Shown: positions 52,027 through 52,230, counted from the first letter of the stretch. The stretch: DNA of 64,000 bases from an uncultured Lachnospiraceae bacterium (GCA_964600435.1 CAZRJB010000001.1:80836-144835), one strand, 5' to 3'. Notes: generated from the sequence alone by a model not told the origin. Numbers and translations: made by a program.

Positions 52027-52055
52027 TTGACACATTTTTGTCATACGGGTAAAAT
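52027..52055 (+). promoter_or_regulatory. Near-consensus SigA promoter of the giant surface-protein gene
   Basis: TTGACA (52027-52032), 17-bp spacer, TAAAAT (52050-52055). Confidence 0.7.
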
Positions 52056-52104
52056 GAATTTATGAGTATGTTAGGCTTGCTTATTGCTTTGCCAACATAG
52101 AGGC

Positions 52105-52201
52105 GGGGGTTGGCGATTTTGCTCGCAAAATGCTCGCAAATGGGCTTGCTCCGCAAGCCCCCCCCCCGCGCGGGGGCGCCGGGGGGCGCCCACCCCCCCC
52201 C
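52105..52201 (+). promoter_or_regulatory. GC-rich structured leader element with C10 and C9 homopolymer tracts
   Basis: The element contains, in order:
- tandem TGCTCGCAAA x2 (52120-52140)
- hairpin GGGCTTGC-tcc-GCAAGCCC (52142-52160)
- C10 (52158-52167)
- palindrome CCCCCGCGCGGGGG (52163-52176)
- tandem GGGGGCGCC / GGGGGGCGCC (52172-52190)
- C9 (52193-52201)

54 of the 60 nt at 52142-52201 are G/C. Confidence 0.8.
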
Positions 52202-52230
52202 AACATAAAACAAATAGGGAGGAGTGTATT

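What the first reader, a model, noticed from the sequence alone, without database searches (positions are those of the whole stretch)
52027..52230. About 90% G+C island with C10 and C9 tracts and nested palindromes in the leader of the giant surface-protein gene
A near-consensus promoter (TTGACA-17-TAAAAT, 52027-52055) and a strong RBS/ATG (52216/52231) bracket a ~170-nt leader. Inside it, 52142-52201 is 54/60 G+C in a window that is otherwise about one-third G+C. The island packs the following:
- an 8-bp GC hairpin (52142-52160)
- a C10 tract (52158-52167)
- a perfect 14-nt palindrome CCCCCGCGCGGGGG (52163-52176)
- a tandem GGGGGCGCC / GGGGGGCGCC duplication, each half carrying a GGCGCC palindrome
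- a C9 tract (52193-52201)

It is preceded by TGCTCGCAAA x2 and a G5 run. The C tracts can pair with several alternative G tracts, so mutually exclusive folds are possible. Their relative stability would change with every slipped-strand gain or loss of a C. This looks like a tract-length-tunable RNA or DNA switch controlling a huge adhesin-like gene, and I do not recognise it as any known riboswitch or leader class. Alternatives are a G-quadruplex/i-motif element, a relic of foreign GC-rich DNA, or an assembly artefact.
Basis: partly seen in the sequence, partly recalled or inferred. Interest (0 to 1): 0.75.

Follow-up and report, generated by a model that had tools for sequence, protein, structure and literature searches.

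The report
GC-rich hairpin insert in adhesin leader
A real and very unusual 100-base G+C-rich, self-folding insert lies in the leader of a giant surface-protein gene of an uncultured gut Clostridia bacterium, but modelling gives no sign that it is a length-tuned RNA switch, and the gene's on/off switching more likely comes from two G9 runs inside the gene.

Summary
52142-52201 is 54/60 G+C in a 32% G+C window, with C10, C9 and G6 runs, nested palindromes and two short tandem duplications. It sits between a TTGACA-17-TAAAAT promoter and a strong RBS/ATG.

The unit is really about 100 nt (52100-52201). It is bracketed by an 8-nt direct repeat (CCAACATA) and closed by 14-nt inverted arms. It folds alone into a four-way junction (-65 kcal/mol, z = -3.1).

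The proposed tract-length RNA switch is not supported by equilibrium folding. For tracts of 7-12 C, at least 98% of sampled folds keep one topology. The cost of opening the ribosome site moves by at most 0.1 kcal/mol for ±2 C.

No other copy or homologue was found anywhere I could search.

The context does point to phase variation. The same gene holds two in-frame G9 runs made of the rarest Gly codon, and a ±1 slip truncates the protein. Four promoters of neighbouring surface-protein genes in relatives (91-96% RpoC identity) carry G7-G9 runs inside the -35/-10 spacer.

Best reading: a single-copy palindromic insertion acting as a constitutive 5'-UTR structure, or as a passenger, in a gene switched through its internal G9 tracts. 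Tract-length heterogeneity needs reads and could not be tested.

The parts
51906..51936 (+). Intrinsic terminator of rpoC, which separates the rpoBC operon from the cassette.
   Evidence: 13-pair stem followed by a T run.
52027..52055 (+). Sigma-A type promoter TTGACA-17-TAAAAT of the giant gene. Its spacer holds no homopolymer tract.
   Evidence: 11 of 12 matches; sequence.
52062..52100 (+). Predicted 5' end of the mRNA. An ATG at the expected start site opens a 12-codon ORF (MSMLGLLIALPT) that stops at TAG 52098-52100, immediately before the island. A 5' hairpin at 52067-52099 is also predicted. Translation of this ORF is speculative.
   Evidence: Read; folds.
52092..52099 (+). Left copy of the 8-nt direct repeat CCAACATA.
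   Evidence: family D9, spacing 108.
52100..52201 (+). The GC-rich module itself. It folds into an autonomous four-way junction: a closing stem (52102-52115 with 52187-52199) and three hairpins, H1 52118-52140, H2 52142-52160 and H3 52161-52186.
   Evidence: (I3, I15, I8).
52120..52140 (+). Tandem duplication TGCTCGCAAAA x1.9, which forms hairpin H1.
   Evidence: (D5).
52158..52167 (+). C10 tract. In the fold, 3 C close H2, 6 C pair with the G6 run, and 1 C is unpaired.
52172..52190 (+). Tandem duplication GGGGGCGCC/GGGGGGCGCC, which holds the G5 and G6 runs and two GGCGCC palindromes.
52193..52201 (+). C9 tract. In the fold, 7 C pair with the 5' G-rich arm and 2 C are unpaired.
52200..52207 (+). 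Right copy of the direct repeat CCAACATA.
   Evidence: family D9.
52216..52233 (+). Shine-Dalgarno sequence AGGGAGGAG (52216-52224) and start codon ATG (52231-52233).
   Evidence: the same start is used in the NCBI gene call P0121.
52231..58755 (+). Giant secreted BspA/DUF285 leucine-rich-repeat protein of 2174 aa.
53042..53050 (+). Intragenic G9 tract 1 (TGG GGG GGG GAC, encoding VWGGD). A ±1 slip truncates the protein to 278 or 291 aa.
54308..54316 (+). Intragenic G9 tract 2, in a duplicated module. A ±1 slip truncates the protein to 700 or 716 aa.

Best explanation
The island is a genuine, single-copy palindromic module of about 100 nt (52100-52201). It was inserted, or built up by local duplication, into what would otherwise be a simple leader of about 60 nt. 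That leader belongs to a lineage-specific giant BspA/DUF285 adhesin gene occupying a hypervariable slot downstream of rpoC.

The module is transcribed from the upstream sigma-A promoter and folds on its own into a very stable four-way junction. This fold leaves the Shine-Dalgarno sequence and start codon as accessible as they would be without the insert.

The module is therefore not a length-tuned riboregulator. It acts, if at all, as a constitutive 5'-UTR structure. Possible roles are a block to 5'-to-3' decay or a double-strand processing site for a 6.5-kb mRNA, as reported for transcribed palindromic repeats and 5' stabilisers in other bacteria. It may also be a tolerated passenger.

On/off switching of the gene is delivered by slipped-strand mispairing at the two G9 runs inside the ORF. 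This fits a lineage-wide habit of putting G runs at expression-critical positions of surface-protein genes.

Shown: the anatomy, the fold and its insensitivity to tract length, the frameshift consequences, the lineage context and the uniqueness of the island. Inferred: the insertion origin, the stabiliser role and actual slippage.
For: **Insertion anatomy**
- An 8-nt direct repeat abuts both ends of the GC-rich block, and 14-nt inverted arms are 86% complementary.
- My own estimate is that an 8-mer repeat falling within ±2 nt of both borders has a chance of about 1e-3.
- Deleting 52100-52207 leaves a coherent leader of 5' hairpin plus SD.

**Autonomous fold**
- The island alone gives -65.1 kcal/mol, z = -3.14.
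- The same topology appears in the full leader and on the DNA minus strand (z = -4.98).

**Insensitivity to tract length**
- At least 98% of sampled structures keep one topology for tracts of 7-12 C.
- Footprint opening energy runs from 8.74 kcal/mol at C5 to 9.46 at C16 in the proximal tract, is unchanged at 8.91 for 7-13 C in the distal tract, and is 9.10 without the island.

**The gene sits in a variable slot**
- L095/L096 have rpoC followed directly by the 90-aa (minus strand), 958-aa, HTH_11 and aminotransferase genes. These match window 58946-64000.
- Other relatives fill the slot with an LRR_5 gene (L093), an ISL3 fragment plus a secreted protein (L089), or unrelated genes (L082).

**Switching capacity lies elsewhere**
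- Both G9 runs are TGG GGG GGG. GGG is the rarest Gly codon (7 of 90 in the gene, 4 of them in these runs). The paralogous module uses GGT GGA.
- ±1 slips truncate the protein.
- Relatives carry G9, G7, G9 and G9 inside 16-18-nt promoter spacers.

**Precedent**
- BspA-like genes phase-vary through simple repeats in Ca. Mycoplasma girerdii (PMC5476646).
Against: - C10 and C9 runs are far above the length that decays neutrally in a 32% G+C genome. Their persistence hints at selection or a very recent origin.
- Homopolymer tracts upstream of an ORF can set mRNA level by unknown means, as with uspA1 G(n) (PMC7302503). Equilibrium folding therefore cannot exclude a DNA-level or kinetic effect.
- No second copy of the module was found, so it is not a demonstrable mobile element. 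Its ends do not resemble the ISL3 ends seen in relative L089.
- The stabiliser role rests only on analogy.
- No conservation data exist, because no orthologous leader was found.
Confidence: 0.4

Rival explanations
1. The leader tracts are themselves a functional contingency element. Gain or loss of C at 52158-52167 or 52193-52201 changes transcription or mRNA level as a rheostat. The route would be one not captured by equilibrium RNA folding, such as co-transcriptional folding, RNA polymerase pausing, a protein or sRNA that binds the G-rich 5' arm, or ribosomes on the leaderless 12-codon ORF. Freeing the C9 run would let it act as an anti-SD.
For: - Four G/C runs of 9 or more cluster in and before one gene and occur nowhere else in 64 kb.
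- The lineage uses G runs in promoters.
- If the 5' arm (52083-52115) is held single-stranded, the C9 run pairs with the SD with probability 0.65.
- With a short 3' context, pairing between the SD core and the tract jumps from 5% at C9 to 48% at C10.
- uspA1 G(n) upstream of the ORF changes mRNA about 20-fold (PMC7302503).
Against: - Opening energy of the ribosome site changes by at most 0.1 kcal/mol for ±2 C.
- There is a single dominant topology.
- The tracts are not in a promoter spacer or an ORF.
- No SD precedes the upstream ORFs.
- There is no homologue with which to test conservation.
Confidence: 0.22
2. The element acts as a DNA-level structure. The template strand carries G9-T-GGG-(21 nt, itself a hairpin)-G10, which could form a long-loop G-quadruplex. 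Alternatively the whole palindrome could extrude as a cruciform, or the coding strand could form an i-motif. Any of these could impede or modulate transcription of the giant gene.
For: - A long-loop G4 pattern exists only on the minus strand.
- The minus-strand DNA fold gives -43 kcal/mol, z = -4.98.
- The element lies between the promoter and the ORF.
Against: - No canonical G3+N1-12 motif is present on either strand.
- Duplex and hairpin alternatives are very stable and compete with G4 formation.
- ±1 changes from 9 or 10 would not remove G4 capacity.
- There is no comparative support.
Confidence: 0.08
3. The module is a neutral relic of foreign or illegitimately inserted GC-rich DNA, or the footprint of a transposable element, with no role. 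The tracts are simply young.
For: - The module is single copy and unique.
- It is flanked by an 8-nt direct repeat.
- IS activity occurs at this slot in a relative (ISL3 fragment in L089).
- Translation initiation is predicted to be unaffected.
Against: - Self-complementarity exceeds what composition gives.
- C-tract lengths match their G partners in the fold.
- No donor sequence was found.
- The only 21-nt match elsewhere is a terminator hairpin in an unrelated 67% G+C contig, which is compatible with chance.
Confidence: 0.2
4. The segment is an assembly or sequencing artefact, that is, a chimeric or low-complexity insertion.
For: - No independent assembly covering the island could be retrieved.
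- Logan contigs of the same organism are short and stop outside it.
Against: - The runs are 10 nt or shorter and internal, unlike poly-G read-end artefacts.
- The flanks are a coherent promoter and RBS.
- Two G9 runs nearby keep a 2174-codon frame intact, which argues for accurate homopolymer calling.
- The internal architecture is ordered.
- The break of contig L097 at 54313 is explained by a 39-nt exact repeat and k = 31.
Confidence: 0.05
5. The module is an invertible leader switch of the Clostridioides difficile cwpV/flgB type, with 52102-52115 and 52187-52200 as recombinase inverted repeats.
For: - Inverted arms flank a 71-nt core between promoter and ORF of a large surface-protein gene.
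- This is the architecture known from C. difficile (my own knowledge).
Against: - The arms are only 14 nt, imperfect and almost homopolymeric.
- The core is itself palindromic, so inversion would change little.
- Neither orientation creates a terminator.
- No recombinase was looked for or seen nearby.
Confidence: 0.03

Closest known systems
Homopolymeric-tract contingency loci (Campylobacter, Neisseria, Haemophilus, Helicobacter; PMC8355987, PMC5084427)
   Same: G/C runs of 9 or more are confined to a surface-protein gene in a low-G+C genome. The intragenic runs frameshift the ORF when they slip. Relatives place G runs in -35/-10 spacers.
   Different: The island's own tracts lie in the 5' UTR, not in an ORF or a promoter spacer. 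They are embedded in a structured palindrome. The host is an uncultured gut Clostridia lineage, for which I found no report. Length variation was not demonstrated.
Moraxella catarrhalis uspA1 G(n) tract upstream of the ORF (PMC7302503)
   Same: [quoted passage not shown] Its length sets mRNA level rather than reading frame.
   Different: uspA1 has a single tract with no GC-rich multi-hairpin module around it, and its effect was shown experimentally. Here nothing is shown and modelling predicts no effect on the RBS.
Bordetella fim 'C-stretch' promoters (PMC1891110)
   Same: A long poly-C run shortly upstream of a surface-structure gene.
   Different: The fim C-stretch overlaps the functional promoter. 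Here no promoter hexamers flank either C run.
BspA-like surface-protein families switched by simple repeats in Ca. Mycoplasma girerdii (PMC5476646)
   Same: The same protein class (BspA/DUF285 LRR) and the same logic of repeat-driven truncated versus intact forms.
   Different: That case uses dinucleotide repeats within or near the ORFs and has no GC-rich leader module.
Transcribed palindromic insertion repeats (Neisseria Correia elements, enterobacterial ERIC, pneumococcal BOX/RUP, Rickettsia RPE; my own knowledge)
   Same: About 100 nt, terminal inverted repeats, a short target duplication, insertion in 5' UTRs, and folding into hairpins that can alter mRNA processing or stability.
   Different: Those elements are multi-copy families with recognisable consensus sequences. 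This module is single copy in everything searched and about 90% G+C in its core.
5'-UTR mRNA stabilisers of Firmicutes and S-layer gene leaders (my own knowledge)
   Same: A stable 5' structure plus a very strong SD ahead of a long, probably abundant surface-protein mRNA.
   Different: Known stabilisers sit at the very 5' end and are simple hairpins. Here a separate small hairpin is 5'-proximal and the module begins about 40 nt downstream of the predicted start site.

Membership tests
Simple-sequence contingency locus (slipped-strand phase variation) | Homopolymer or short-repeat tract long enough to slip (about 7-8 or more G/C). | tested here: met
   C10, C9 and G6 in the leader; G9 twice in the ORF.
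Simple-sequence contingency locus (slipped-strand phase variation) | Tract placed where its length changes expression (ORF frame, -35/-10 spacer or a regulator site). | tested here: inconclusive
   Met for the two ORF G9 runs. Not met for the island tracts: they are in the 5' UTR, no promoter hexamers flank them, and no effect on the RBS is predicted.
Simple-sequence contingency locus (slipped-strand phase variation) | Length polymorphism within populations or between strains. | not testable with these tools
   There is no read data. No second assembly covers 52100-52201.
Riboswitch or cis-regulatory leader RNA | Match to a described family. | tested here: not met
   Rfam gave no match at gathering thresholds. 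In E-value mode the best overlapping hit had E = 6.4.
Riboswitch or cis-regulatory leader RNA | Expression platform: a terminator or SD sequestration coupled to alternative folds. | tested here: not met
   No terminator follows the island. There is one dominant fold. SD opening energy is unchanged against the island-free leader.
Riboswitch or cis-regulatory leader RNA | Conservation with covariation across homologues. | not testable with these tools
   No homologous sequence was found in the JGI metagenomes, IMG/VR, plasmids or 1.54 Mb of related loci.
MITE or palindromic mobile repeat | Terminal inverted repeats and a target-site duplication. | tested here: met
   14-nt arms with 86% complementarity, and the 8-nt direct repeat CCAACATA. 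The arms are low in complexity.
MITE or palindromic mobile repeat | Multiple copies in the genome or in relatives. | tested here: not met
   No other copy in the 64-kb window, in the related loci or in the collections scanned. The rest of the source genome could not be searched.
MITE or palindromic mobile repeat | Ends related to those of an autonomous IS. | tested here: not met
   The ISL3 ends in L089 (GGCTCTTTGTCAACAATGGGGGTCAA...) do not match the module ends.
G-quadruplex or i-motif element | Four G3+ (or C3+) runs with short loops. | tested here: not met
   No G3+N1-12 x4 match on either strand. Only a 21-nt-loop variant exists, on the minus strand.
Invertible leader switch (cwpV/flgB type) | Inverted repeats of about 20 bp flanking a segment whose orientation creates or removes a terminator or promoter, plus a site-specific recombinase. 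| tested here: inconclusive
   Only 14-nt imperfect arms are present. No terminator was found on either strand. No recombinase was searched for. Orientation variants need reads.

The most novel reading that the evidence does not exclude
The module is a new kind of leader element in which two hypermutable C runs and their G partners form a length-programmable nucleic-acid structure. The structure could be a kinetic RNA fold with a C-run anti-SD that is released when the G-rich 5' arm is occupied, or a hairpin-looped G-quadruplex/i-motif on the DNA. It would add a graded, reversible expression layer on top of the frameshift on/off switches inside a giant adhesin gene of an uncultured gut Clostridia lineage.
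Probability: 0.13. Interest if true: 0.7.

Novelty: new variant of a known kind. Interest (0 to 1): 0.4.

Why it matters
If the context reading is right, an uncultured gut or rumen Clostridia lineage uses G/C homopolymer slippage to switch BspA-like surface proteins. The tracts sit in promoter spacers in relatives and inside the ORF here. This strategy is textbook for Campylobacter, Neisseria and mycoplasmas. In Clostridia, known phase variation is mostly by DNA inversion.

The island itself is an extreme compositional and structural outlier. Its role is testable with public reads and simple reporters. If tract length did matter, it would be a new way of wiring simple repeats into a 5' UTR. 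If it does not, it is a clean example of a tolerated palindromic insertion in a leader.

Tried and rejected
**Known RNA families.** Rfam found only two tRNAs in the window and nothing credible on the island. ARAGORN reported no tRNA-like call there.

**Orthologous loci via RpoC in GTDB genomes.** The best match is only 69% identical. No low-G+C locus has a GC island or a run of 8 or more.

**Exact-pattern scans.** The hairpin pattern in JGI metagenomes hit only an unrelated 67% G+C contig, at a terminator after a flagellar gene. Four patterns in IMG/VR gave nothing. PLSDB plasmids gave nothing.

**Exact-protein look-ups.**
- RpoC and the giant protein are not in the positional index.
- The N-terminal 300 aa gave no hit. 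That search is unreliable, because the identical full-length protein P0121 is in the collection.
- Contigs carrying RecO and the 962-aa protein show the same organism in four public runs, but none reaches the island.

**Close relatives.** Loci at 90-96% RpoC identity have no homologous leader or island.

**Ideas rejected.**
- The contig break at the G9 tract is not evidence of heterogeneity. It is explained by a 39-nt exact repeat and k = 31.
- A uORF from ATG 52130 ends at a TGA overlapping the main ATG, but it has no SD.
- The in-frame TTG 52084 extension is rejected because stops are rare in GC-rich sequence and the signal peptide starts at 52231.
- There is no secondary promoter with the C9 run in its spacer, since no -35 is present.
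- The whalefall-1-like motif of the relatives is absent from the window.
- No border repeats define the 7-kb cassette.

Full report
**Observation.** The sequence is exactly as described.
- 52142-52201 is 54/60 G+C in a window of 32.05% G+C. The next richest 60-mer is 40/60 and the two after it are tRNAs.
- The C10 tract (52158-52167), G6 run (52181-52186) and C9 tract (52193-52201) are, with two G9 runs inside the downstream ORF, the only G/C runs longer than 5 in 64 kb.
- A first-order Markov model expects 0.0009 C runs and 0.025 G runs of 9 or more. P(>=54/60 G+C) is about 1e-20.
- TRF confirms the two short tandem duplications, of 11 nt at 52120-52140 and 10 nt at 52172-52190.
- The promoter TTGACA-17-TAAAAT (52027-52055) scores 11/12, and rpoC has its own terminator at 51906-51936.
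- The RBS AGGGAGGAG lies 6 nt before ATG 52231. An independent NCBI gene call gives the identical 2174-aa product from the same start (P0121).
- The protein is a BspA/DUF285 leucine-rich-repeat surface protein with a signal peptide.

- The unit begins at about 52100. An 8-nt direct repeat, CCAACATA, sits at 52092-52099 and 52200-52207 and abuts the GC-rich block on both sides.
- 14-nt inverted arms (52102-52115 and 52187-52200, 86% complementary) close the block.
- Folded alone, 52100-52201 forms a four-way junction of a closing stem and three hairpins at -65.1 kcal/mol. This is better than 199 of 200 dinucleotide shuffles (z = -3.14).
- The complementary DNA strand folds the same way (z = -4.98).
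- In this fold the C10 run is used almost completely: 3 C close hairpin 2 and 6 C pair with G6. Seven of the nine C of the second run pair with the G-rich 5' arm.
- Removing 52100-52207 leaves a plain leader of about 60 nt with a 5' hairpin and the SD.
- The block therefore looks like a secondary insertion or a locally generated palindrome, not an integral part of the leader.

**Test of the proposed switch.** I rebuilt the transcript from the predicted start (about 52062) with each tract varied.
- Boltzmann sampling (1000 structures each) gives the same partner choice in at least 98% of structures for all lengths tested from 7 to 12. C10 pairs with G6 and C9 pairs with the 5' arm.
- The free energy needed to open the 30S footprint is 8.91 kcal/mol for the native sequence. 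It is 8.89-8.98 for C7-C11 in the proximal tract, unchanged for 7-13 C in the distal tract, 9.46 even at C16, and 9.10 for the island-free leader.
- With a shorter 3' context the SD core exchanges a weak downstream partner for surplus Cs once the proximal tract reaches C10 (5% to 48%). The energy difference is negligible.
- Only if the G-rich 5' arm is kept single-stranded does the C9 run sequester the SD (probability 0.65).
- A 12-codon ORF starting at the predicted transcription start and stopping at TAG 52098-52100 could in principle do this, but nothing shows that it is translated.
- At equilibrium, then, the island is an inert and very stable appendage. The tract-length RNA switch is not supported.
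- No canonical G-quadruplex motif exists on either strand. Only a 21-nt-loop variant is present, on the template strand.
- No Rfam family matches.

**Uniqueness.** No other copy or partial copy was found in any of these searches:
- the window itself;
- 1.54 Mb of related loci;
- PLSDB plasmids;
- IMG/VR, with four patterns;
- the JGI metagenomes, where the single hit is a terminator hairpin in an unrelated 67% G+C contig.

The window's organism is an uncultured Clostridia/Eubacteriales bacterium (names). Its closest RpoC relatives are 95-96% identical. Its own proteins occur only in one NCBI assembly (contig 152,574 nt) and in fragmentary Logan assemblies of four runs.
- L097 and L098 match the window at 99.98% and 100% identity but start at 54313 and 58906.
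- The start at 54313 is exactly what a k = 31 graph gives at the end of the 39-nt exact repeat shared by two protein modules. It is not evidence for tract heterogeneity.
- No independent assembly of the island, and no read data, could be obtained.

**Context.**
- L095/L096 (90% RpoC identity) have rpoC followed directly by a 90-aa gene on the minus strand, a 958-aa gene, HTH_11 and an aminotransferase. These are the genes found at window 58946-64000.
- The promoter, island and giant ORF therefore form a lineage-specific cassette in a slot that other relatives fill differently. L093/L094 have an LRR_5 gene. L089 has an ISL3 transposase fragment and a 505-aa secreted protein. L082 has unrelated genes.
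- In these relatives four promoters of such genes carry a G run inside the -35/-10 spacer:
  - L085: TTGACA-acgc-G9-aga-TATAAT, spacer 16, 12/12 matches;
  - L089: TTGACA-ttgcgga-G7-agc-TAAAAT, spacer 17;
  - L089: TTGACA-acgcgt-G9-agt-TAAAAT, spacer 18;
  - L093: TTGACA-tctctgc-G9-TAAACT, spacer 16.
- This is the classical architecture of slippage-controlled promoters.
- In the window the promoter spacer has no tract. Instead the ORF has two G9 runs, both TGG GGG GGG GAC. GGG is the rarest Gly codon (7 of 90, four of them in these runs), and a paralogous module encodes the same WGG as TGG GGT GGA.
- A ±1 slip truncates the protein to 278/291 aa or 700/716 aa.
- BspA-like genes are known to phase-vary through simple repeats in Ca. 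Mycoplasma girerdii (PMC5476646).
- G/C homopolymers are the switch of choice in low-G+C Campylobacter (PMC8355987).

**Interpretation.**
- The best-supported picture is a gene whose on/off state is set by intragenic G9 slippage. Its leader has acquired a single-copy, self-complementary GC-rich module.
- As RNA, the module is a constitutive structure that does not touch the ribosome site. By analogy with transcribed palindromic repeats and 5' stabilisers (my own knowledge), it may protect or process the 6.5-kb mRNA, or it may do nothing.
- The main rival is that the leader tracts matter through a route equilibrium folding cannot see. This is kept alive by their improbable length, by their clustering with the ORF tracts, and by uspA1 of Moraxella, where a G(n) run upstream of the ORF changes mRNA about 20-fold (PMC7302503).
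- An artefact is unlikely. The runs are short and internal, the flanks are coherent, the frame stays intact through two G9 runs and the internal architecture is ordered. It is not excluded.
- An invertible switch and a G-quadruplex are weakly supported.

**Verdict.** I rate it a new variant of a known kind, of moderate interest. Public reads from four named runs would settle the tract-length, empty-site and artefact questions.

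Noticed in passing
window 53042-53050 and 54308-54316: Two in-frame G9 runs lie inside the giant ORF. Both are TGG GGG GGG GAC in duplicated VWGGD modules that share a 39-nt exact repeat. ±1 slips truncate the protein, so these are likely frameshift phase-variation sites.
   Followed up: yes
L085:1627-1654, L086:283-291, L089:3541-3569, L089:14346-14375, L093:13850-13877, L094:8415-8423: In relatives (91-96% RpoC identity), near-consensus promoters of secreted or BspA-like genes flanking rpoBC carry G7-G9 runs inside 16-18-nt spacers. This looks like slippage-controlled promoters in uncultured gut Clostridia. Tract lengths were identical in the two pairs of independent assemblies.
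   Followed up: partly
L089:3684-4025; L082:4473-4721; L085:1319-1472; L093:9786-9833 and 13911-13976: A dispersed two-hairpin motif, CCTCCCC-loop-GGGGAGG / variable hairpin with compensatory changes / GGAGAGGTTT, gave 18 hits. All are on the gene strand in intergenic regions of close relatives, and the motif is tandem in a 500-nt BspA-gene leader. It has a sub-threshold Rfam match to whalefall-1 (21.1 bits against gathering 37, E = 0.0065). It is absent from the window.
   Followed up: partly
window 26386-27246: An 860-nt intergenic region after a GLUG-motif protein gene holds 3-4 diverged copies of a GC hairpin plus T-run unit (CCCTTGGCGGAGCAGTCCGCTGGGGGATTTTT...) and of TTTAATTACACAAATTTGGCATAT. 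A tRNA T-arm-like GTGGGGGTTACGATTCCCCCAC sits at 26428-26450. Neither Rfam nor ARAGORN calls anything there.
   Followed up: partly
L082:13678-13916; L083, L084 and L085-L088 contig ends: Directly downstream of rpoC in the 96%-identity relatives lies a repeated 90-nt element with a UUCG-loop hairpin (2 copies, 89% identical). Most assemblies of these relatives break within or just before it.
   Followed up: partly
L090:213-4190: A relative carries a DUF6273 protein, an orphan ORF and a reverse transcriptase (RVT_1, 344 aa) immediately upstream of rpoB. This may be a diversity-generating retroelement or a retron in the same variable neighbourhood.
   Followed up: no
L089:13290-14200: An ISL3-family transposase fragment with recognisable inverted-repeat remnants lies in the slot downstream of rpoC. 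This shows that the slot is a target for mobile DNA.
   Followed up: partly
window 52062-52100: An ATG at the predicted transcription start opens a 12-codon hydrophobic ORF (MSMLGLLIALPT) ending at the left border of the island. It could be a leaderless upstream ORF. A ribosome at its stop codon would unwind the 5' arm of the module.
   Followed up: partly
tool behaviour: The word-indexed protein search returned no hit for the first 300 aa of the giant protein, although the identical full-length protein is in the collection. 'No homologue' results from that tool for short or unusual queries should be read with caution.
   Followed up: yes
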